Sequence record: MZ234033.1
Origin: Escherichia phage vB_EcoS-G3B1
Direction: 5' to 3' (one strand)
DNA: 51,299 nt
In this document: piece after piece, positions 1 to 51,299 of the stretch
How the letters are laid out: every line of letters begins with the position of its first letter
Position numbering within the stretch: position 1 is the stretch's first letter
Notes under the pieces: generated by a model
Seen by the model: the letters and a program-made list of their open reading frames with translations, nothing else
Told to the model about the DNA's origin: nothing
Databases searched by the model: none
Position numbers and translations under genes: made by a program

Positions 1-127
1 AAGGAGTCAATAAGCCACGATGAATTTATGGGGATCTTGTTGTTCGGTGACTCTTATCGTCTTGGTTACAAGATGGTTGAGCTTGTGGAAGAGGTCAAAT
101 TCTAAATAGCACTTTTTGTTAAAACTC
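1..127. repeat. Terminal 127-bp sequence identical to 51173-51299 (circular closure overlap)
   Basis: First 127 bases of the window are repeated exactly at its end; the ORF 51092..51277 reads through the junction. Confidence 0.9.
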
Positions 128-23696: not shown

Positions 23697-26600
23697 ATGG
23701 CTAAATATATGATAAGCGGCAGTAAGGGAGGCGGTCAAAAGCCCTACGTGCCAAAAGAGATGGAAGATAACCTGATCTCGATAAACAAGATTAAAGTTTT
23801 GCTGGCTGTATCTGATGGCGAGTGCGATCCAGATTTTACGTTGCGTGATCTTTATCTTGATGATGTTCCGGTTATTGCCAGCGATGGCACTGTTAACTAC
23901 GAGGGAGTTACGGCTGAATATCGACCAGGCACGCAGACGCAAGATTACATCCAGGGTTTTACTGACACATCAAGTGAGGTTACAGTTGCCAGAGATATTA
24001 CCGGAGACAATCCTTATGTTATTTCTGTTACAAATAAAAATCTATCTGCGGTAAGAATAAAGATCCTGATGCCAGTAGGCATTAAAACAGAGGATAACGG
24101 CGATCTTGTTGGCGTAAGGGTTGAGTATGCCGTAGATATGGCTGTTGATGGCGGTTCTTATAGCGAGGTTATGAGAGATGTAATTGACGGCAAGACAAGA
24201 TCAGGATACGACCGCAGCAGAAGGATTGATCTTCCTAAGTTTGATGAGCGCGTTTTAATCCGAGTAAAGCGACTGACTCCAGACAGCACATCTTCAAAGG
24301 TGACTGATAAAATCAAGCTGCAAAGTTACGCTGAGGTTGTTGATGCAAAATTCCGCTATCCTCTGACTGGACTTGTATTCGTAGAATTTGACAGCGAATT
24401 GTTTCCTACGCAAATCCCTAACATTTCTATAAAAAAGAAATGGAAGATTATTAATGTGCCAAGCAACTATGATCCAATATCAAGAGAATATCACGGGTCA
24501 TGGGATGGGACTTTTAAAAAAGCGTGGTCAAATAATCCTGCTTGGGTTCTTTATGATCTGGTGACAAATCAGCGTTATGGACTTGATCAGCGAGAGTTAG
24601 GAATACAGATCGACAAGTGGAGCTTATACGAGGCGGGCGTTTACTGCGATCAGAAAGTTCCAGACGGTAAAGGCGGCACTGAGCCTCGCTACCTATGCGA
24701 TGTGGTGATTCAGAATCAAGTTGAGGCTTATCAGCTAATCCGTGACATTTGCTCAATCTTTCGCGGAATGAGTTTTTGGAATGGTGAGAGCTTATCAATC
24801 GTGATTGATAAGCCGCGCGATCCATCATACGTGTTTACTAATGAAAACGTCATCAACGGTGATTTTCAGTACACAAACGCAAGCGAAAAAAGCATGTACA
24901 CGCAGTGTAACGTGACGTTTGACGACGAACAAAACATGTATCAGCAGGACGTAGAGGGGGTTTTTGATACTGAGGCGGCATTACGATTTGGATACAACCC
25001 AACAAGCATTACAGCGATCGGGTGTACGCGCAGGAGCGAAGCGAATCGTCGCGGTCGTTGGGTTTTGAAAACAAACCTTAGAAGCACTACTGTAAACTTT
25101 GCTACCGGACTAGAGGGGATGATTCCATCAATAGGTGATGTTATTGCTATCGCTGATAATTTTCAGAGTAGCAACCTAACGTTAAACCTATCGGGCCGAG
25201 TAATGGAAGTTTCAGGGCTGCAGGTTTTCGTTCCGTTTAAGGTTGATGCTCGCCCTGGTGATTTTATTATCATCAACAAGCCGGACGGCAAGCCAGTTAA
25301 GCGCACGATCTCAAAGGTTAGCGCAGACGGAAAAACCATTGAGTTAAATATTGGATTTGGTTTTGATGTTAAGCCTGATACTGTTTTTGCGATTGACCGT
25401 ACTGATCTTGCGTTGCAGCAATACGTTGTGACAACCATCAGCAAGGGTGATGACGAAAACGAGTTTACCTATTCAATCACGGCTGTAGAGTACGATCCGA
25501 ACAAATACGACGAGATTGATTATGGAGTAAACATTGATGACAGACCGACTTCAATTGTTCAGCCTGACGTGATGGCAGCGCCTGAGAACGTTAAGATCTC
25601 ATCTTATTCTCGCGTCGTGCAGGGTGTTAGCGTTGAGACTATGGTTGTTTCATGGGATAAGGTTCCTTACGCATCGCTTTATGAAATGCAGTGGCGAAAA
25701 GGTGATGGTAACTGGCTGAATACGCCGCAGACCGCTAACAAAGAGATAGAGGTAGAAGGGATTTACTCTGGCAACTACCAAGTAAGGGTGAGATCCGTTT
25801 CTGCAAGCGGTAACGCTTCCCCGTGGTCAAAGATTGCAACCGCCACTCTGACAGGTAAAGTTGGCGAGCCAGGAGCGCCGATTAATCTTACGGCTTCTGA
25901 TAATGAAGTTTTTGGCATTCGTGTCAAATGGGGTATGCCGGAAGGATCAGGCGATACGGCTTACATTGAGCTTCACCAATCGCCAGACGGAACGGTTGAA
26001 AACTCAAGTCTGCTTACGCTGATTCCATATCCTCAATATGAGTATTGGCATAGCACGTTACCAGCGGGGCAAGTTGTATGGTATAGAATCCGCAGCGTTG
26101 ACAGAATAGGCAACGTTTCAAGCTGGACTGACTTTGTTCGCGGCATGGCGTCAGATGACGTTGAATCTGTTTTGGGCGACATTCTGGACAAGATTTTTGA
26201 TACAGAAGCTGGTCAAGAAATCAAAGAGAACGCCATAGACAGTGCCAATAAAATCAAAGACCAGGCGCAATCAATCATACAGAACGCGTTGGCAAATGAT
26301 GCAGATGTGAAGTGGACGCGAGTGCAAAACGGAAAGCGCAAGGCTGAATATGGTCATGCTCTTGAGCTTATCGCCAATGAAACAGAAGCGCGCGTAACTC
26401 AAATCGAAGAGTTAAGGGCTTCAATTGATGGCGAGATAACATCAAGCATCAAGACAGTGCAGGAGGCAATTGCCACTGAATCAGAGACGCGAGCGACTCA
26501 AATTCAGCAGCTTGATTCTAAATTCACAAAAGAAATCGACGGCGTGCGCAAGGATACTTCTGCAAGCATTAGCGATGTAAGGCAGACAATCACTAACGAG

Positions 26601-27275
26601 TCAGAAGCGCGCGCTCAGGCCGTTCAGCAGCTTGACGCTAAGTTCACGAAAGAGATAAACGACCTTGACGGAGTTATCAAAACAGAAGTCGAGGCTAACA
26701 TCTCAGAAGTGAAACAGGCGATCGCCAATGAGACAGAGGCAAGGGTTCAGGCTGACCAGGCATTAACAGCACGATTTGGCGACGTTGAATCTGCATTGGT
26801 TGAAAAGTTGGATTCTTGGGCGAGCGTTGATTCAGTTGGGGCTAAATACGCTATGAAACTTGGCCTTACTTACAAAGGCCAGCAATACAGCGCAGGAATG
26901 GTGATGCAGCTTTCGCAGGGTTCATCCGGCCTTATCTCGCAAATTTTGTTTGATGCTAACAGGTTCGCCATTATGACTAGCTCTACTGGAGGGACTTTTA
27001 CTTTGCCTTTCGTGGTTGAGAATAATCAGGTTTTCATTAATAGTCTTTTGGTGAAGAACGGTTCAATCACTAATGCGATGATTGGTAATGTGATTCAGTC
27101 AAACAACTTTGTTCAAAACCAGCAAGGATGGAGGCTTGATAAAAACGGAATCTTTGAGAATTACGGATCAACGCCAGGAGAAGGAGCTACTAAATTCACC
27201 AATGAGGGATTGAAGGTAAAAGATGCAAACGGAGTATTGAGGGTTGAAGTCGGAAGGATTACCGGAAGATGGTAA
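23697..27275 (+). CDS. Tail tip / host specificity protein (lambda J-like) with C-terminal ~40-aa repeats
   Basis: 1192 aa after I-like gene; RBS AAAGG before ATG 23697; repeat units NETEARVTQIEEL.., SETRATQIQQLDSKFTKEI.., SEARAQAVQQLDAKFTKEI.. Confidence 0.8.
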   Translation: MAKYMISGSKGGGQKPYVPKEMEDNLISINKIKVLLAVSDGECDPDFTLRDLYLDDVPVIASDGTVNYEGVTAEYRPGTQTQDYIQGFTDTSSEVTVARDITGDNPYVISVTNKNLSAVRIKILMPVGIKTEDNGDLVGVRVEYAVDMAVDGGSYSEVMRDVIDGKTRSGYDRSRRIDLPKFDERVLIRVKRLTPDSTSSKVTDKIKLQSYAEVVDAKFRYPLTGLVFVEFDSELFPTQIPNISIKKKWKIINVPSNYDPISREYHGSWDGTFKKAWSNNPAWVLYDLVTNQRYGLDQRELGIQIDKWSLYEAGVYCDQKVPDGKGGTEPRYLCDVVIQNQVEAYQLIRDICSIFRGMSFWNGESLSIVIDKPRDPSYVFTNENVINGDFQYTNASEKSMYTQCNVTFDDEQNMYQQDVEGVFDTEAALRFGYNPTSITAIGCTRRSEANRRGRWVLKTNLRSTTVNFATGLEGMIPSIGDVIAIADNFQSSNLTLNLSGRVMEVSGLQVFVPFKVDARPGDFIIINKPDGKPVKRTISKVSADGKTIELNIGFGFDVKPDTVFAIDRTDLALQQYVVTTISKGDDENEFTYSITAVEYDPNKYDEIDYGVNIDDRPTSIVQPDVMAAPENVKISSYSRVVQGVSVETMVVSWDKVPYASLYEMQWRKGDGNWLNTPQTANKEIEVEGIYSGNYQVRVRSVSASGNASPWSKIATATLTGKVGEPGAPINLTASDNEVFGIRVKWGMPEGSGDTAYIELHQSPDGTVENSSLLTLIPYPQYEYWHSTLPAGQVVWYRIRSVDRIGNVSSWTDFVRGMASDDVESVLGDILDKIFDTEAGQEIKENAIDSANKIKDQAQSIIQNALANDADVKWTRVQNGKRKAEYGHALELIANETEARVTQIEELRASIDGEITSSIKTVQEAIATESETRATQIQQLDSKFTKEIDGVRKDTSASISDVRQTITNESEARAQAVQQLDAKFTKEINDLDGVIKTEVEANISEVKQAIANETEARVQADQALTARFGDVESALVEKLDSWASVDSVGAKYAMKLGLTYKGQQYSAGMVMQLSQGSSGLISQILFDANRFAIMTSSTGGTFTLPFVVENNQVFINSLLVKNGSITNAMIGNVIQSNNFVQNQQGWRLDKNGIFENYGSTPGEGATKFTNEGLKVKDANGVLRVEVGRITGRW

Positions 27276-27300
27276 AAAAGGGGGCATAGCCCCCTTTAAT
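27274..27300. terminator. Bidirectional intrinsic terminator between convergent genes
   Basis: A-run, hairpin GGGGGCATAGCCCCC, T-run. Confidence 0.65.
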
Positions 27301-27301
27301 T

Positions 27302-27916
27302 TTAATCATAGTGTGATGCATTTATAACCAAAACAGATGAAGCGGTGTAAATACCAACAGGTCCAGGAGTTTGTGCAACCTGCCTAGAAAAAGAGTAGAT
27401 CCCGTTACCATACGCGGCAGCTTGAGACTCAAAAATCATGAATCCACCTAAAGCCGGATTAGGAACAGAGTTTAATGCTGTCAGTGATGGCATTATGGCG
27501 CAAGGATAGCCCATGTTAACATCAAATGCGATCCCGCTTACGCCTACTTGCTTTGCATCTAGCGGCCTCATTTTTCCATGATAAACCATTTCACCATGAG
27601 CATTATAAAACGCTATGCCGTGACTACCTGGGGGAGTAACCATATTACTAAAAGCATAAACAATAACCTCACCCTGATTATCAGATCTATCAAGTCTTAT
27701 TGCGTGCCTTCCACCATTGTTAAATTGCGTGAATGATATGTATGATTTAGCGGTCAATCTAACAAAGAAAAAACATACCCTATCAACAGGAATTGACGAA
27801 GTAAAAACGGTTCCGGTATTAGCAGATATTACGGCCCGATCAATTAGATTAACTGGAGTGAAATCTGGACTTAACCATAACGATCCGTCTGATTTTTTTA
27901 TACTCATCCCGTACAT
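27302..27916 (-). CDS. Hypothetical tail-associated protein (204 aa)
   Basis: First ATG at 27916 preceded by GGGGGTGA; co-transcribed with lipoprotein gene downstream of J-like gene. Confidence 0.45.
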   Translation of the reverse strand: MYGMSIKKSDGSLWLSPDFTPVNLIDRAVISANTGTVFTSSIPVDRVCFFFVRLTAKSYISFTQFNNGGRHAIRLDRSDNQGEVIVYAFSNMVTPPGSHGIAFYNAHGEMVYHGKMRPLDAKQVGVSGIAFDVNMGYPCAIMPSLTALNSVPNPALGGFMIFESQAAAYGNGIYSFSRQVAQTPGPVGIYTASSVLVINASHYD

Positions 27917-27918
27917 TA

Positions 27919-28197
27919 TCACCCCCAAAAAGTATATATATATCTTGAATCAGATCCAGAAAGCCCACTCCATGTAACGGTGTCGCCACTCACCCCTAAG
28001 TTTGGTGCGCCAGGGTCGCCACCACGCCAGGAATTCATGCCAACATATATTGCTTTCAATGATTTACCTGGCGGCCTGTTTTGGTAAGTCTTGCTACCTG
28101 ATGGCTGAGTGAATTTATCAAGGAAGAAAACAGGCGTTAAAAGTCCTGTAACTTCCCTTCCTCGATCGTCATATATTGCATAACCATATTGCGCCAT
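27919..28197 (-). CDS. Hypothetical protein (92 aa)
   Basis: ORF between lipoprotein and 204-aa gene. Confidence 0.45.
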   Translation of the reverse strand: MAQYGYAIYDDRGREVTGLLTPVFFLDKFTQPSGSKTYQNRPPGKSLKAIYVGMNSWRGGDPGAPNLGVSGDTVTWSGLSGSDSRYIYTFWG

Positions 28198-28466
28198 TAA
28201 TTACACCTCAAATCAATAAATTTACTTTCATTTTGCCAACGGTTGATAAATTTAACTTCTTTATTGTCAACGCTCAACCTGTATTGCTTTTGGCTGAATC
28301 TGTTTTCGCGGACTGCATTAATTTTGACTTCATGGAATCCGTTAACAGGGAATGTTTTAACGTTAAATTTTGCCGTGCAATCGATCTCCTTGAAGTTGCC
28401 AGTAGGCGACGCTGCGCATCCTGTCAGAGCGGCTACAGTGGCGATAACTGCGATTAACTTTTTCAT
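28197..28466 (-). CDS. Cor-like outer-membrane lipoprotein (candidate superinfection exclusion)
   Basis: Signal peptide with lipobox LTGC (MKKLIAVIATVAALTGC), 89 aa, located by receptor-binding module. Confidence 0.6.
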   Translation of the reverse strand: MKKLIAVIATVAALTGCAASPTGNFKEIDCTAKFNVKTFPVNGFHEVKINAVRENRFSQKQYRLSVDNKEVKFINRWQNESKFIDLRCN

Positions 28467-28496
28467 CTTTATATCTCCTTAGTTGTTGTTGTTTTC

Positions 28497-28542
28497 AACT
28501 ATACACGATCTTGGGCATCGCGTTTAGCAAAAAGTGCTATTT
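28497..28542 (-). promoter_or_regulatory. Cassette motif (minus orientation) with TATAGT -10-like element for lipoprotein operon
   Basis: Minus-strand reading CAAATAGCACTTTTTGCTAAAC...TATAGT...AAGGAG ATG. Confidence 0.5.
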
Positions 28543-28967
28543 GTTATTTTTTGTTTTCCGGTGTTATCGAATTTAAGACGGCGTAAATTTAGCGCAAAAT
28601 TTAGACAACATAAGATCAATAAACAATCAATAAAATAGATATATACATATAAAATCAATAGTTTATTTATTTATGTATGTATATTTGTTTTTTCTTGTTA
28701 TCTGCGTTTCTTGTGGTTTTGGTTGTTTGTGGTGATTTTTCTTTCTGAGTATCTGTATGTGCCATCATTCATGTGTATGTATATAATCCGGCGTATCTGA
28801 GAGAACATGGTAACAAGAAAAATAACACACATTAATCATTAACTTATGAGTCAAATCTGTTTTCTTGCCATCTGAGAACGTTTAGAAAACAGAAAAAACA
28901 AAACAGCTATTGACTAAATCAACCAAATGGCTACAATGCACGCATAAAGCAACAAGGAGCATTAAAG
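28543..28967. promoter_or_regulatory. AT-rich divergent intergenic island with ATCAATA repeats, GT-rich tract and promoter-like TTGACT-N17-TACAAT
   Basis: About 425 bp with no credible ORF; paralogous blocks shared with 49473-50084. Confidence 0.5.
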
Positions 28968-32513: not shown

Positions 32514-34504
32514 TAAACAATTTCCCCCAATTGATGATCTGTTAGTGCCTTGTGCCAGATTCGCAAGTTCTTGACGTGTCCGAACAAGTGCCTGTTACCA
32601 GATGCAGACTGTCCGCCAATATTTATGTTTCCTGCAATGTATCGTTGCTTAGTCCACAATGAAGGAGACTCACTGCCAAGAACGCCATCAACTACAACTT
32701 GTAATTTTTTTTCTTCCGTAAATATGAATCCAGCAACAAACTTATTCTTAACTCTATCCCCATATGCTTTATATTCAGTTTTGCTACCTTTGCCGTTAGT
32801 GATTATCAACCTTCTTCCTCCGCTTGTTAAACCAAAATACATGTAACTCTCGTCTTGTATTTCAGTTGTAGATCCAGTAATTGATACATTTAGAAGTCTT
32901 GCTGATCCTTCTATGTTTGGCATTTTATTTACAGCGCCCCAATTAACATTAACCTCCATCAATGCGCATATAGGCGGAGTCGCCCAGTTCATAGGAATTG
33001 GAATGAGCACAATATCGCTAGCTCTTGTTGTTGGTGATCCTTCTGTTATTATGAATGATGATGCACACGAGCCAACCTCAATCTGAGGGGTTGTAAGATC
33101 CATAAAGCTAGTTTCATCAAGAATACCACCACCTGTTTTGTTGGCAATTGTAATAACACCTCTAACATGAGTTGTTTCATCTGTTATTTTATACACAACC
33201 TCTACAAAAACCCACTCACCAACACGAACAGCATTTTTTGCAACAATATTTTCTATATCGCCACCGGACAAATGAATACCTAGACTATCGCAATCAATGT
33301 ATGCAATTGCTACAGCAGATAGAGGATCGCCCTTATCAAATCTTGCACCAAATCTAACATTATTCCCTTTCGCTCTGAAAGATATAGTTACCATATCATT
33401 TTTTACAACTGGTATTTTATTTGGTGTCAGTCCTGCAATGACAGTATATGCACCAGTACCACCAGAAAATTCTCCTGGCTTGAATGTTGCATATTTAAAG
33501 CCTAATGGATCGGTCTTTGTTTTGCTTATTTCAAGCCCTGGGTTTGGATTCCATAACTCCGGTGAGTTTGAATTTATGAAATAGTTAGTTCTCTGACCTT
33601 CGATCAGTAAACCATCCCTTTCAAATCGAGGTTCATCAACATCTGCAATAGTAAGCACGCCAGCTTTATTTATGTAAGTTGCACCGGATGCGCGCTTAAA
33701 GTTGACAACCTTATCTGATGGCATTGTGATCACATCATCGCCAACAGTTATTTTTTTGTAACCAGGAGCAAAGCCGGTGATCATATCCAGGGAATCATTA
33801 AACGGTATCCACACGTCCGGCAACGGTTGCAATAAATCTTTGTAAGGTTCTGCGGCCTGCTTTGCGTATTCCTCCGCTTGATCTCGCGCGCTTTCAGCGC
33901 CTGCCTTTGCAGTGTTCGCAGCATCACGCGCAGTTTCAGCGCCTTCTCTTGCTGTTTCAGCGCCAGTCTTTGCAGTGTTTGCAGCGTCGCGCGCGGATTC
34001 AGCGGCAGCCTTTGCAGTATCAGCACCTTTCTTGCTATTCGCTGCATTTGTTGCGCTTGTCTTCGCGTTATTCTCGCTGGTTTTAGCTGCCTGCTGGCTT
34101 GCTGCTGCTGCGTCAGCATTTGTCTTTACGTCTTCCTGGATCTTCTGTAGCTTATCCCAATCAAAATCCTTGATGATCTCAATAAATCCAGCAAACTCAG
34201 ATTCCTTCCCCTGGTAATAACGCAGCGTTTCCGCTACGTCTTGCGCAAGACCGTCAACCGTTAACGAGTCATGAAGCAAGATCAGGTAATTTGTCTTCTG
34301 TACTACCGCGCCGCCAGTAGTAATTGCGCGAATGCTTGTATCGCTAATCACTTCAGTAATCACAGCAGCTTGCAAAGGTTGAGAAAGAAAGAAAATAGTT
34401 GCACCTGGGCGAATCAAGGTTAATTGCTCACGCCATTTTGTACCGTAACCAGTTACATAACCTTGCGCGTCCATAGACGCTTGGCCTTGTCTGTAAATCG
34501 CCAT
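32513..34504 (-). CDS. Side tail fibre protein with Ala-rich tandem repeats
   Basis: 663 aa; N-terminal MAIYRQGQA; repeat block AKTSATNAANSKKGADTAKAAAESARDAANTAKTGAETAREGAETARDAANTAKAGAESARD. Confidence 0.7.
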   Translation of the reverse strand: MAIYRQGQASMDAQGYVTGYGTKWREQLTLIRPGATIFFLSQPLQAAVITEVISDTSIRAITTGGAVVQKTNYLILLHDSLTVDGLAQDVAETLRYYQGKESEFAGFIEIIKDFDWDKLQKIQEDVKTNADAAAASQQAAKTSENNAKTSATNAANSKKGADTAKAAAESARDAANTAKTGAETAREGAETARDAANTAKAGAESARDQAEEYAKQAAEPYKDLLQPLPDVWIPFNDSLDMITGFAPGYKKITVGDDVITMPSDKVVNFKRASGATYINKAGVLTIADVDEPRFERDGLLIEGQRTNYFINSNSPELWNPNPGLEISKTKTDPLGFKYATFKPGEFSGGTGAYTVIAGLTPNKIPVVKNDMVTISFRAKGNNVRFGARFDKGDPLSAVAIAYIDCDSLGIHLSGGDIENIVAKNAVRVGEWVFVEVVYKITDETTHVRGVITIANKTGGGILDETSFMDLTTPQIEVGSCASSFIITEGSPTTRASDIVLIPIPMNWATPPICALMEVNVNWGAVNKMPNIEGSARLLNVSITGSTTEIQDESYMYFGLTSGGRRLIITNGKGSKTEYKAYGDRVKNKFVAGFIFTEEKKLQVVVDGVLGSESPSLWTKQRYIAGNINIGGQSASGNRHLFGHVKNLRIWHKALTDHQLGEIV

Positions 34505-41703: not shown

Positions 41704-42194
41704 TGAGCATAAAGAACAGGGTAGCGGCTGCGGCCTTTGGCGTTGCGGTTGCCTTGACTTCTCCACTTCTTGAAGAGATCGAAGGGGTAAGATACAAGCC
41801 ATACAAAGATATTGCTGGAGTATGGACTGTTTGCGCAGGAATCACCGGACCAGATGTTATCCTGGGGAAAACGTACACTAAAAAAGAGTGTGATGCTTTG
41901 TTGGCTAAGCATATCCAGGTTGCTAAAAAGGAAGTTGACAAGCAAGTTAAGGTTGATATTCCTGATAGTATGCGTGCAGCAATGTACTCATTCACTTACA
42001 ATGCAGGTGTGGGAGCTTTCAGAAATTCAACAATGCTGAAACTCATCAACCAGGGGAAATTAAACGAGGCTTGCGATCAGCTTTATCGTTGGACTTATTA
42101 CCATAACCAAAAAACAGGAAAGCGCGAGAAGTCTAAAGGCTTACTTAACAGGCGCAAGGTCGAATACAAATATTGCACAATGGATCTGAAATGA
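41703..42194 (+). CDS. SAR endolysin (lysozyme-like muramidase)
   Basis: N-terminal weakly hydrophobic signal-anchor ([14 protein letters not shown]) and E-x8-D-x5-T catalytic spacing ([16 protein letters not shown]). Confidence 0.75.
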
Positions 42195-42586
42195 TGAAGA
42201 ATTTTTTACTTACACCAATCGCAATGGCGGTGATCTTGTCTGGATGTTCAAGCGTTACGCCACTGACCGGATTAATCGGCAGTAAGCCGGAAATCACAGC
42301 ACAGGCTGGAGCGGAGAACGTGAAGCAGACAGTTGGCATTACAGCAAAGCAGGACGCCAGCACAAAACAGGAAACCACAATAAAGGAATCTGCGGTTGAC
42401 AAGGTGGACACGTCCAGCAAGAAGGATTTCACAACATCAACCATTCAGGCCAATACCATCAAGGCAGACAAAATTCAGGTCGTGCAGGGTAATAACGGCA
42501 GATGGTACGATCCAGTAATCATATGCGTGGTTGTGTTTCTTGTGCTGATTTGTCTTTACTGGAGAGAAAAGAAAAAGGAGGCTTAA
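42191..42586 (+). CDS. Unimolecular spanin (T1 gp11-like)
   Basis: N-terminal lipoprotein signal with lipobox LSGC plus C-terminal TM helix ([16 protein letters not shown]); last gene of lysis cassette. Confidence 0.7.
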
Positions 42587-49391: not shown

Positions 49392-49411
49392 TTACTATCT
49401 CCTGAGCGGTT

Positions 49412-49472
49412 CGTTTCGATGTGTGTAATGTACCCGATCAGGTGGCCTGAGTTTTAACAAAAAGTGCTATTT
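49412..49472 (-). promoter_or_regulatory. Cassette motif + TACATT + CACATCGAAACGAAC leader (first minus cassette)
   Basis: Minus-strand AAATAGCACTTTTTGTTAAAAC ... GGGTACATTACACACATCGAAACGAACCGCTCAGGAG. Confidence 0.55.
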
Positions 49473-50084
49473 GACAGTTAGCACCAGGATTGTGATCGAA
49501 ATAATCAAAAGTAATCATTCGTAATCAAATCACGTCAAAATGATGATTGTCTTTGCAAATTTGATGAGAAAAGTAATCACGTTTAATCATTGGTTGCAGG
49601 GGAGATAGTGAAACCTTCCCCTCTTGCCTCACTTTTCCGCCTGGCTGTCAGTGGTTGTTGTCTTTTGTTCACCACTGTTACCGATTTCATGCGGCGTGTT
49701 TCCGCGCGGTTTTCCGGTGTATCGAAAACGGAAAAAACAAAAAAAATCCTTTATAATACATTGAAAATAAAGATTATTTATTTATATATATCTATAATGT
49801 TTTCTTTTTGTTCTCACTGTTACAGTGCTTTTTGTTGGGTGTGGTGTGGTTGTGTGTTGGTATATATGGATAGTTGCGCGCGCGGCGGATTGCATATGTA
49901 TATATACTTTTTCCGGCGGATTGCGTTAACAGCGTGAACAGAAAAATAACAGCACTGAAATCAATAACTTGCGCATGATTTTGTAGTTTTTCGATATTGG
50001 TAACGTTTTGAATACAACAAAAACATTGACACGCACCAAATAGCTTTTATAATGCGCCAACAGTCAACAACTGGAGGAAAGGAA
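49473..50084. promoter_or_regulatory. AT-rich divergent intergenic island with GTAATCA iterons, GT-rich tract and near-consensus sigma70 promoter (TTGACA 50026-50031, TATAAT 50048-50053)
   Basis: About 610 bp without credible ORF; shares GTTTTCCGGTGT(T)ATCGAA, GT-rich and TGTATGTATATA blocks with 28543-28967. Confidence 0.55.
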
Positions 50085-50549
50085 ATGGAACAGAAGACCA
50101 CTAAGGACTATTGCGATTGGCTTCGCGAGCTTGGTCGCCGCCTGGCTAGTGGCGATATTGAAGAGTATAAAATGTCACTAATTGACCTGGCCGGAATGTT
50201 AAGCGGTGACGACTGCTACAAGATCACGCGCAGTTCATCCTACAGCCGGACCATTATCAACCGCGTTCCAGAAGTAAGGGCCGCAGGTCGGGTAAGCATC
50301 AAGGTAGAGGAAACGGAAGATGATAAATTTTACGTTTTCCGCATGGTCCGCGAATCGAAAAGGAAAATCATCACACCCGAAGAATTGCCAGCCATCAAGG
50401 CAAGGGCGATCAAAAAGTTTGCCGATCGCATACTGGCAGCAATCCCGAATATCGTGGACCTGGAAGGGGATAAACTGGCTGGGGCTTGCGAGGGTGTAAG
50501 CCGCTACCAGGATATGATCCGCGAAATCATCAAAGAGGAAGAGCAATGA
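50085..50549 (+). CDS. Hypothetical early protein (154 aa)
   Basis: RBS GGAGGAAAGGAA before ATG 50085, directly downstream of consensus promoter; ORF-track start 50052 lies inside the -10. Confidence 0.55.
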   Translation: MEQKTTKDYCDWLRELGRRLASGDIEEYKMSLIDLAGMLSGDDCYKITRSSSYSRTIINRVPEVRAAGRVSIKVEETEDDKFYVFRMVRESKRKIITPEELPAIKARAIKKFADRILAAIPNIVDLEGDKLAGACEGVSRYQDMIREIIKEEEQ

Positions 50550-50818
50550 AAAAGGCATTAATCAGCGTTTTGGCGGCAATGGCATTCCTGACCGGATGCA
50601 AAGAAGATGGCGCGCATGTTGGCAATGTGCAGATGGCTAACCCTGGCGATGACTACAGCGTAAGGGAGCTATTCACCGCTGACGGTTGCACCGTTTACCG
50701 ATTCTATGACGATCGCACTGTTTACTTCACCAACTGCAAGGGCACTACTAGCTGGGAAGTGTCGAAAAGCAATGGCAAAGGCACGAAGACAGAACATATG
50801 ACCGTCGAGACAAAATAG
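50546..50818 (+). CDS. Early lipoprotein (90 aa; candidate superinfection exclusion or receptor-masking protein)
   Basis: Signal peptide with lipobox LTGC (MKKALISVLAAMAFLTGC); ATGA overlap with upstream gene. Confidence 0.55.
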   Translation: MKKALISVLAAMAFLTGCKEDGAHVGNVQMANPGDDYSVRELFTADGCTVYRFYDDRTVYFTNCKGTTSWEVSKSNGKGTKTEHMTVETK

Positions 50819-50874
50819 CACTTTTTGTTAAAACGCCAGGCGCAAAGCCTGGCATAATAGCCTCATCGAAACGA
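50813..50874 (+). promoter_or_regulatory. Cassette motif + hairpin + CATAAT + CATCGAAACGAGATTG leader
   Basis: AAATAGCACTTTTTGTTAAAAC on stop codon, hairpin GCCAGGCGCAAAGCCTGGC, CATAAT, CTCATCGAAACGAGATTGAGGAAA. Confidence 0.55.
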
Positions 50875-51091: not shown

Positions 51092-51277
51092 ATGAAAACG
51101 AAACTAGTCCATAAGTCAGAAATCAAGATCGGCGATACTGTGATTCACAACGGCGAGCTTAGAACGGTTGGCAAGGAGTCAATAAGCCACGATGAATTTA
51201 TGGGGATCTTGTTGTTCGGTGACTCTTATCGTCTTGGTTACAAGATGGTTGAGCTTGTGGAAGAGGTCAAATTCTAA
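51092..51277 (+). CDS. Small hypothetical protein (61 aa), runs across the circular junction
   Basis: RBS AGGTGAATAG; C-terminal ELVEEVKF resembles the EFEEVK ends of 1171..1634 proteins; stop inside cassette motif. Confidence 0.5.
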   Translation: MKTKLVHKSEIKIGDTVIHNGELRTVGKESISHDEFMGILLFGDSYRLGYKMVELVEEVKF

Positions 51278-51299
51278 ATAGCACTTTTTGTTAAAACTC

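What the first reader, a model, noticed from the sequence alone, without database searches (positions are those of the whole stretch)
28197..28466. Two separate lipoproteins: Cor-like late lipoprotein (28197..28466, minus) and early lipoprotein (50546..50818)
Both have classic lipoprotein signal peptides with an LTGC lipobox but unrelated mature sequences. One is beside the receptor-binding genes like Cor of T1/phi80 (FhuA-blocking superinfection exclusion); the other is in the earliest transcribed block like Llp of T5. Two exclusion-type lipoproteins in one genome suggests two receptors or stages are masked.
Basis: partly seen in the sequence, partly recalled or inferred. Interest (0 to 1): 0.5.

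Follow-up and report, generated by a model that had tools for sequence, protein, structure and literature searches.

The report
Two phage lipoproteins, one receptor-linked
This T1-like coliphage encodes two small exported lipoproteins: one is the expected receptor-blocking partner of its receptor-binding genes (probably aimed at BtuB, not FhuA), and the other belongs to a widespread early phage family (DUF4884) of unknown function that does not track any receptor module.

Summary
Both ORFs are real and both carry a textbook lipoprotein signal ending in LTGC; their mature parts are unrelated. The window is a complete Warwickvirus genome (Drexlerviridae).

Lipoprotein 1 (28197..28466, minus) is the first gene of a compact three-gene minus-strand operon just after the gpJ tail-tip gene. 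It is a distant relative of Cor but fails the curated Cor thresholds. The same cassette occurs in FritzSarasin (98.9% identical) and KarlJaspers (56%), whose receptor was determined as BtuB. FhuA phages of the same genera carry the T1-type Cor cassette instead. So it is most likely a BtuB-directed exclusion lipoprotein, a kind already described. "Late" is unsupported.

Lipoprotein 2 (50546..50818, plus) is a DUF4884 protein. It is the second gene behind the only perfect sigma-70 promoter in the genome, so "early" is plausible. It is not like T5 Llp, whose counterpart here is lipoprotein 1. Its mature domain is swapped as a cassette between near-identical genomes, independently of the receptor cassette, gpJ and the lateral fibre. 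It also occurs in Rtp and in unrelated phages and prophages, and is absent from T1. "Two receptors masked" is not supported; its function stays unknown.

The parts
23697..27275 (+). gpJ-like central tail-tip protein (1192 aa), immediately upstream of the receptor cassette
   Evidence: ORF; annotated as tail protein / J-like tail tip protein in SECphi27 and FritzSarasin; 95.7% aa identity to PeterMerian, 88.7% to FritzSarasin, 66.9% to T1.
27277..27297 (.). G+C-rich hairpin between the convergent gpJ gene and the receptor cassette; terminator-like
   Evidence: One search found it on the + strand (9-pair stem, 6 G-C pairs, T-rich tail); sequence AAAGGGGGCATAGCCCCCTTT. That it also ends the minus-strand operon is my inference from its position.
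27302..27916 (-). 204-aa protein, third gene of the cassette; candidate receptor-binding protein (PHROG 425)
   Evidence: PHROG 425, E 1e-49; 98.5% identical to FritzSarasin bas04_0023 and 64% to the KarlJaspers counterpart, both BtuB phages; only 26% (E 1e-7) to the FhuA-type protein of PeterMerian.
27919..28197 (-). 92-aa protein, second gene of the cassette (PHROG 557)
   Evidence: PHROG 557, E 4e-20; 98.9% to FritzSarasin, 69.6% to KarlJaspers, no hit in the FhuA phages; its ATG overlaps the stop of lipoprotein 1 as TAATG.
28197..28466 (-). Lipoprotein 1 (89 aa, lipobox LTGC, Cys17): candidate BtuB-directed superinfection-exclusion lipoprotein, a distant Cor relative
28498..28543 (-). Promoter-like element upstream of lipoprotein 1: a 21-nt direct repeat (28543..28523) plus a TATAGT hexamer (28503..28498)
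   Evidence: Exact match to CAAATAGCACTTTTTGCTAAA, one of 20 copies in the window against 0.01 expected. Its architecture matches the other copies. The repeat was described for phage TLS (PMC11447400).
50026..50053 (+). Perfect sigma-70 consensus promoter (TTGACA-16-TATAAT)
   Evidence: it is the only 12/12 match in the whole window on either strand.
50085..50549 (+). 154-aa protein of unknown function, first gene behind the promoter; its stop overlaps the start of lipoprotein 2
   Evidence: 99.4% to FritzSarasin, 29% to PeterMerian; no Pfam-type hit in NCBIfam or PADLOC; weak similarity to T1 ST77; the C-terminal end resembles that of Rtp1 by eye.
50546..50818 (+). Lipoprotein 2 (90 aa, lipobox LTGC, Cys18): DUF4884-family early accessory lipoprotein
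50812..50832 (+). Copy of the 21-nt direct repeat overlapping the stop of lipoprotein 2; right-hand edge of the swapped mature-domain segment

Best explanation
The window is a complete Warwickvirus genome (T1-like, Drexlerviridae). It encodes two unrelated small lipoproteins with different roles.

Lipoprotein 1 is the exclusion component of the exchangeable receptor module that follows gpJ. It is the first gene of a tightly packed operon (lipoprotein, then a 92-aa protein, then a 204-aa candidate receptor-binding protein) that ends at the hairpin shared with gpJ. By analogy with T5 Llp on FhuA and Rtp45 on LptD, it would be exported, lipidated and anchored in the inner leaflet of the outer membrane. 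There it would bind the periplasmic face of the phage's own terminal receptor, so that the receptor-binding protein of incoming or released phages can no longer dock. For this cassette type the receptor is most likely BtuB. This mechanism is inferred, not shown.

Lipoprotein 2 is a DUF4884 protein made from the strongest host-type promoter of the genome, so probably very early. It is a stand-alone accessory gene that is not matched to any host-recognition module. Its most likely role is a receptor-independent action in the periplasm, such as exclusion at a step after adsorption or protection or modification of the envelope. This last step is a guess.
For: Identity of the phage: 99.3-99.8% DNA identity to tunzivis, SECphi27 and swan01; a 127-nt exact terminal overlap shows a circular assembly.

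Lipoprotein 1:
- Signal peptide and lipobox are present.
- It sits directly after gpJ, in an operon with overlapping or abutting start and stop codons.
- The family has two invariant Cys, C30 and C88.
- A profile of the mature domain only aligns end to end with PeterMerian Cor at 15.3 bits, and scores T1 Cor at 6.7 bits; 0 of 500 shuffles reach either score.
- Receptor correlation: FritzSarasin and KarlJaspers, both listed as BtuB phages, have the same minus-strand cassette, at 98.9/98.9/98.5% and 55.7/69.6/64.2% identity. PeterMerian, JakobBernoulli and T1, all FhuA phages, have the +,+,- Cor cassette.
- Literature places cognate exclusion lipoproteins in this locus (PMC8594841, PMC9586334, PMC13164509, bioRxiv 10.1101/2025.07.07.663478).

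Lipoprotein 2:
- It passes the Pfam DUF4884 threshold, 31.8 against 30 bits.
- It lies behind the only 12/12 sigma-70 promoter in the window.
- The divergent segment against FritzSarasin is the mature domain only, about 50590..50824, with flanks near 100% identical.
- FritzSarasin (BtuB) and PeterMerian (FhuA) share one allele, while the window (BtuB type) has another.
- Rtp, predicted to use LptD, has the homologue Rtp3 as well as Rtp45; T1 has none.
- Homologues sit among small early genes, nucleic-acid-metabolism genes or nin-region-type genes of unrelated phages and Pseudomonas prophages.
Against: Nothing here shows lipidation, localisation, binding to BtuB or an exclusion phenotype.

For lipoprotein 2 there is no functional evidence at all. 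The model is of low confidence (pLDDT 65) and has no informative structural neighbour. The homologues were collected through shared words or the pattern DGCTVYRF, so conservation of the core is partly an effect of how they were found.
Confidence: 0.68

Rival explanations
1. One reading: lipoprotein 1 is a late-expressed Cor that blocks FhuA, and lipoprotein 2 is an Llp-like early blocker of a second receptor.
For: PHROG 1119 (Cor) hit for the full-length protein at E 8e-8; position beside the receptor genes; a strong promoter ahead of lipoprotein 2.
Against: The cassette matches BtuB phages, not FhuA phages. The Cor hit depends on the signal peptide and lies below the NCBIfam cut-off. Lipoprotein 2 has no similarity to lipoprotein 1, and no search returned Llp for it. 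T5 Llp lies beside pb5, not in a pre-early block (PMC9586334).
Confidence: 0.07
2. Lipoprotein 2 masks a second surface structure that this phage itself uses, such as the primary receptor of the lateral fibres or a co-receptor. On this view the two lipoproteins together protect both adsorption steps.
For: It is an exported early lipoprotein. Its mature domain is one of about eight mosaic spots between near-identical genomes, and those spots also include the lateral fibre and part of gpJ. Some Drexlerviridae have dual receptor requirements (bioRxiv 10.64898/2026.04.02.716166).
Against: The allele does not follow the receptor cassette, gpJ or the distal fibre/chaperone module. The window and tunzivis share the allele but differ in the central fibre. 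The window and PeterMerian share gpJ (95.7%) and the fibre chaperone (93%) but differ in the allele. The family occurs in myoviruses, a 199-kb Xanthomonas phage and Pseudomonas prophages. Some members have Asp after the lipid Cys or a transmembrane anchor instead of a lipobox, which fits poorly with an obligatory outer-membrane position.
Confidence: 0.1
3. Lipoprotein 2 has nothing to do with exclusion. It modifies host envelope physiology for the phage's benefit, for instance by damping an envelope stress response, controlling lysis timing, or countering an envelope-associated host defence.
For: Early position among host-takeover-type small genes in several unrelated phages, for example next to a Lar-like restriction-alleviation gene. 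No conserved neighbour gene. Independence from host-recognition modules.
Against: There is no positive evidence. It is not near the lysis cassette, which already has a u-spanin. No match in PADLOC.
Confidence: 0.25
4. Lipoprotein 1 is not an exclusion factor but an assembly or accessory factor for the receptor-binding proteins with which it is co-transcribed.
For: It is the first gene of an operon with the two candidate receptor-module proteins, with coupled start and stop codons.
Against: A lipoprotein is exported to the periplasm, whereas virions assemble in the cytoplasm. It shows distant homology to Cor over the whole mature domain. Proteins at the equivalent position have been shown to be exclusion factors (Llp, Rtp45).
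Confidence: 0.05

Closest known systems
Cor of phages T1, phi80, N15 and HK022 (FhuA-directed exclusion lipoprotein)
   Same: A small lipoprotein next to the genes that follow gpJ, transcribed leftward. It has a Cys-Thr-Ala-x-aromatic motif near the start of the mature part and a Cys near the C-terminus. There is weak but non-random profile similarity over the whole mature domain.
   Different: It is 14 residues longer. Pairwise similarity to T1 Cor is limited to the signal peptide and the first motif. It falls below the curated Cor thresholds. The two neighbouring genes are inverted and co-transcribed with it. The cassette is linked to BtuB rather than FhuA.
Llp of T5 (FhuA) and the receptor-blocking lipoproteins of BtuB-dependent T5-like phages (BF23, phiR2-01 gp145)
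   Same: A lipoprotein gene adjacent to the receptor-binding gene and inherited with it as a module (PMC8624392, PMC10644984). The proposed action is at the periplasmic face of a TonB-dependent transporter (PMC9586334). gp145 shows the same Cys-Thr-Ala motif and C-terminal Cys.
Rtp45 of phage Rtp (LptD-directed exclusion lipoprotein, structure solved)
   Same: The same genomic slot after gpJ and the same logic of a receptor-matched periplasmic lipoprotein. Rtp also carries a DUF4884 lipoprotein (Rtp3) at the left end of its genome, so the two-lipoprotein layout recurs.
   Different: A different receptor class and a much smaller protein (about 6 kDa). Sequence similarity to lipoprotein 1 was not tested.
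Pfam DUF4884 (PF16225) / PHROG 6360
   Same: Lipoprotein 2 passes the Pfam gathering score and matches PHROG 6360. All 22 database relatives that carry a Pfam label are DUF4884.
   Different: No member has a known function. The window allele lacks the second Cys pair (C-G-K-x-C) that most relatives have.

Membership tests
Bacterial lipoprotein precursor (signal peptidase II substrate) | Basic N-terminus, uncharged hydrophobic stretch, lipobox [LVI][ASTVI][GAS]C with the Cys at about residues 15-35 | tested here: met
   Both proteins: MKK..., an uncharged stretch of 11 or more residues, LTGC, Cys17 or Cys18. Pfam LPAM_1 gives only weak scores (14.2 and 10.7 bits against a cut-off of 20), which is usual for so short a model.
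Bacterial lipoprotein precursor (signal peptidase II substrate) | Actual lipid modification and cleavage | not testable with these tools
   Needs globomycin sensitivity, palmitate labelling or mass spectrometry.
Cor exclusion lipoprotein family (NCBIfam NF047972; PHROG 1119) | Score above the curated family threshold | tested here: not met
   NF047972: 19.2 bits against a cut-off of 31. The PHROG 1119 hit at E 8e-8 for the full protein is lost when the signal peptide is removed.
Cor exclusion lipoprotein family (NCBIfam NF047972; PHROG 1119) | Homology of the mature domain, including the two conserved Cys | tested here: inconclusive
   A mature-only profile of 45 relatives scores PeterMerian Cor at 15.3 bits with an end-to-end alignment and T1 Cor at 6.7 bits; 0 of 500 shuffles reach either score. 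The signal is real but weak.
Cor exclusion lipoprotein family (NCBIfam NF047972; PHROG 1119) | Location in the variable locus directly downstream of gpJ | tested here: met
Cor exclusion lipoprotein family (NCBIfam NF047972; PHROG 1119) | Association with FhuA as terminal receptor | tested here: not met
   The cassette is shared with the BtuB phages FritzSarasin and KarlJaspers. The FhuA phages PeterMerian, JakobBernoulli and T1 have another cassette.
Cor exclusion lipoprotein family (NCBIfam NF047972; PHROG 1119) | Exclusion phenotype on expression | not testable with these tools
   Needs plating and adsorption assays.
T5 Llp-type receptor-blocking lipoprotein | Fold similarity to Llp (PDB 8A60 chain B) | tested here: inconclusive
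T5 Llp-type receptor-blocking lipoprotein | Gene adjacent to the receptor-binding protein gene | tested here: met
   Met for lipoprotein 1. Not met for lipoprotein 2, which lies about 22 kb away among small genes of unknown function.
Pfam DUF4884 (PF16225) | Score above the Pfam gathering threshold | tested here: met
   31.8 bits against 30 for lipoprotein 2. 22 of 23 database relatives carry PF16225.

The most novel reading that the evidence does not exclude
DUF4884 lipoproteins such as lipoprotein 2 form a so far unrecognised class of early, membrane-tethered periplasmic phage factors. They would act independently of the receptor, for example by blocking a post-adsorption step of incoming phages or by disarming an envelope-associated host function. 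Their mature domains would be exchanged as cassettes between otherwise near-identical phages under diversifying pressure.
Probability: 0.25. Interest if true: 0.55.

Novelty: new member of a known kind. Interest (0 to 1): 0.3.

Why it matters
For lipoprotein 1, the value is practical. It adds a clear sequence-based marker for BtuB-type receptor modules in T1-like phages: a lipoprotein co-transcribed with two receptor-module genes. It also shows that automatic "Cor" labels can rest on the signal peptide alone and can point to the wrong receptor.

For lipoprotein 2, the value is a lead. An uncharacterised family is expressed from the strongest host-type promoter of the genome. It is spread over very different phages and exchanged as a mature-domain cassette, which makes it a cheap and direct target for expression and deletion experiments on what phages do to the cell envelope early in infection.

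Tried and rejected
- A profile search of solved structures with the lipoprotein 2 family gave summed weak matches to designed PQQ-type propeller repeats. Each repeat scored only 3-4 bits, so I treat this as a resemblance of beta-hairpins, not homology.
- PADLOC and NCBIfam gave nothing useful for lipoprotein 2 or its upstream neighbour.
- Clustering the neighbours of 61 homologous loci found no recurrent partner gene. The large clusters were out-of-frame ORFs overlapping the homologue itself, or synteny within one lineage.
- tblastn with a distant lipoprotein 1 relative (P0045) only led back to the same phage group.
- The profile test of lipoprotein 1 against phiR2-01 gp145 was not significant.
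- The Rtp genome paper could not be read.
- I considered an o-spanin role for either lipoprotein and rejected it. The lysis cassette has its own u-spanin, and neither gene is near it.

Full report
**What the window is.** The region around both ORFs is 99.3-99.8% identical to a set of sequenced coliphages: tunzivis, SECphi27, swan01, tunus and others. These are classified as Drexlerviridae, Tempevirinae, Warwickvirus. The first and last 127 bases of the window are identical. The window is therefore a circular assembly of a whole genome, and the position of a gene near the "end" has no biological meaning.

**The observation.** Both ORFs exist as described.
- Lipoprotein 1 (28197..28466, minus, 89 aa) begins MKKLIAVIATVAALTGC.
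- Lipoprotein 2 (50546..50818, plus, 90 aa) begins MKKALISVLAAMAFLTGC.
- A rule-based scan of every six-frame ORF of at least 35 aa found a lipoprotein signal in only three real genes: these two and the u-spanin at 42194..42586.
- Both have ribosome-binding sites.
- The lipid-attachment Cys is invariant in the lipoprotein 1 relatives and present in at least 90% of the lipoprotein 2 relatives.
- The two proteins are unrelated.

**Lipoprotein 1: anatomy.**
- It is the first gene of a minus-strand unit that starts behind a 500-bp A+T-rich spacer (31% G+C).
- The unit runs through a 92-aa gene (PHROG 557) and a 204-aa gene (PHROG 425).
- It ends at a G+C-rich hairpin shared with the convergent gpJ gene.
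- The stop of the lipoprotein gene overlaps the next start (TAATG), and the following junction leaves 2 nt.
- Upstream, 57-77 nt before the ATG, lies one of 20 copies of a 21-nt repeat. In most copies this repeat is followed about 20 nt later by a -10-like hexamer and then a gene. The repeat is known from phage TLS, where its role is undecided (PMC11447400).
- Nothing in this layout marks the gene as late.

**Lipoprotein 1: relation to Cor.**
- The full-length protein hits the PHROG labelled Cor (E 8e-8).
- Without the signal peptide that hit vanishes.
- The NCBIfam Cor model gives 19.2 bits against a cut-off of 31.
- BLASTP against T1 Cor aligns only the signal peptide and a short motif.
- I built a profile from the mature parts of 45 relatives and scored Cor proteins with it. 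PeterMerian Cor gave 15.3 bits with an alignment from the first Cys motif to the C-terminal Cys. T1 Cor gave 6.7 bits. No shuffle out of 500 reached either score.
The protein is therefore a distant relative of Cor, not a member of the curated family.

**Lipoprotein 1: which receptor.** The BASEL collection lists experimentally determined terminal receptors (PMC8594841, S5 table).

| Phage | Genus | Receptor | Genes after gpJ | Identity to window (lipoprotein / 92-aa / 204-aa) |
|---|---|---|---|---|
| FritzSarasin | Warwickvirus | BtuB | same three minus-strand genes | 98.9 / 98.9 / 98.5% |
| KarlJaspers | Hanrivervirus | BtuB | same three minus-strand genes | 55.7 / 69.6 / 64.2% |
| PeterMerian | Warwickvirus | FhuA | two plus-strand genes, then a 75-aa Cor on the minus strand | signal peptide only / none / 26% |
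| JakobBernoulli | Hanrivervirus | FhuA | two plus-strand genes, then a 75-aa Cor on the minus strand | signal peptide only / none / none |
| T1 | Tunavirus | FhuA | two plus-strand genes, then a 75-aa Cor on the minus strand | signal peptide only / none / none |

(Sources.)

PeterMerian's gpJ is 95.7% identical to the window's. The cassette has therefore been exchanged within a conserved backbone. The window phage most likely uses BtuB, and lipoprotein 1 is most likely the matching exclusion factor.

This agrees with published statements that receptor-binding proteins and cognate exclusion lipoproteins sit in this locus (PMC8594841, PMC9586334). It also agrees with a recent note that a Tempevirinae species using BtuB carries a Cor-like gene (PMC13164509).

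[quoted passage not shown] Those cases are Llp with FhuA (PMC9586334) and Rtp45 with LptD. It is not shown here.

**Lipoprotein 2: what it is.**
- It passes the Pfam threshold for DUF4884 (31.8 against 30 bits) and matches PHROG 6360, both of unknown function. Two papers mention DUF4884, neither functionally.
- The relatives share a signal peptide, a variable linker and a core around DGCTVYRFYDDRTVYFTNC with two invariant Cys. Most have a further Cys pair that the window allele lacks. This conservation is partly an effect of how the relatives were found.
- The model is of low confidence (pLDDT 65) and has no informative neighbour.

**Lipoprotein 2: expression.** It is the second gene behind TTGACA-16-TATAAT at 50026..50053. 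This is the only perfect match to the sigma-70 consensus in the whole genome. Its start is coupled to the upstream 154-aa gene. Early expression by host polymerase is therefore plausible, though not shown. In Rtp the homologous pair (rtp1, rtp3) are the first genes of the conventional map.

**Lipoprotein 2: test of the "second receptor" idea.**
- Against FritzSarasin, the DNA is about 100% identical up to codon 15 of the signal peptide and again from the repeat that overlaps the stop codon. Only the mature domain (about 50590..50824) differs, at 46% protein identity. It is one of about eight mosaic spots between the two genomes.
- FritzSarasin (BtuB) and PeterMerian (FhuA) carry nearly the same allele. 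The window, with the BtuB-type cassette, carries another.
- The allele also fails to follow gpJ or the distal fibre/chaperone module.
- T1 has no homologue. Rtp has one in addition to its verified exclusion lipoprotein.
- Homologues occur in Serratia myoviruses, a Pseudomonas phage, a 199-kb Xanthomonas phage, uncultured phages of 5-358 kb and Pseudomonas prophages. Where I looked at the neighbours, they were small early genes, nucleic-acid-metabolism genes or nin-region-type genes, never tail genes.
- No neighbour gene recurs.
- A few members have Asp after the lipid Cys or a transmembrane anchor in place of the lipobox. That fits a periplasmic action better than an obligatory outer-membrane position.
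These results argue against a receptor-matched mask. What the protein does remains open. I favour a receptor-independent periplasmic role, with low confidence.

**Verdict.** Lipoprotein 1 is an ordinary member of a known kind of system, with the receptor assignment corrected from FhuA to BtuB. Lipoprotein 2 is a real but uncharacterised early accessory lipoprotein. It is a reasonable experimental lead, but the sequence gives no evidence that it masks a second receptor.

Noticed in passing
window, 20 sites, e.g. 103-123, 1095-1115, 28523-28543, 49453-49473, 50812-50832: A 21-nt repeat (AAATAGCACTTTTTGTTAAAA) occurs 20 times against 0.01 expected, mostly in the local direction of transcription. 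In most copies it is followed about 20 nt later by a -10-like hexamer, often with a short hairpin in between, and then by a gene start. The spacing is too long for the TTGTTA in the repeat to serve as a -35 box. The repeat was described for TLS with unknown function.
   Followed up: partly
window 1-127 and 51173-51299: The first and last 127 bases are identical. The window is therefore a circular assembly of a complete genome of about 51,172 bp, and the gene 51092..51277 is partly duplicated at the start.
   Followed up: yes
window 42194-42586 (+): This is the third lipoprotein of the genome (lipobox LSGC). It follows the holin and endolysin genes, and it is 96% identical to the gene annotated as u-spanin in PeterMerian.
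   Followed up: partly
window 32589-33700 (-), central part of the lateral tail fibre gene: This stretch has no match at megablast level in the closest relatives and only 90.8% identity to one other phage (PhiR46_1). The fibre chaperone and the distal end are shared with many phages, so the fibre is a mosaic with a rare central segment.
   Followed up: no
window 27302-28466 compared with T1 (L004 28607-29850) and PeterMerian (L007 20050-21212): BtuB-type and FhuA-type cassettes seem distantly related gene for gene: both map to PHROG 425 and 557, and the lipoproteins share a weak profile signal. In the BtuB type, however, the two larger genes are inverted and co-transcribed with the lipoprotein.
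   Followed up: partly
window 28467-28967 and 49392-50084: The two long A+T-rich non-coding spacers, each lying between divergently transcribed genes, share several stretches of about 75% identity (about 100 bp, E 2.5e-8) in addition to the 21-nt repeat.
   Followed up: no
window 26309-26759 (+), within gpJ: A 450-bp segment of gpJ differs from FritzSarasin although both phages carry the same receptor cassette. The same gene is 95.7% identical to that of the FhuA phage PeterMerian.
   Followed up: no
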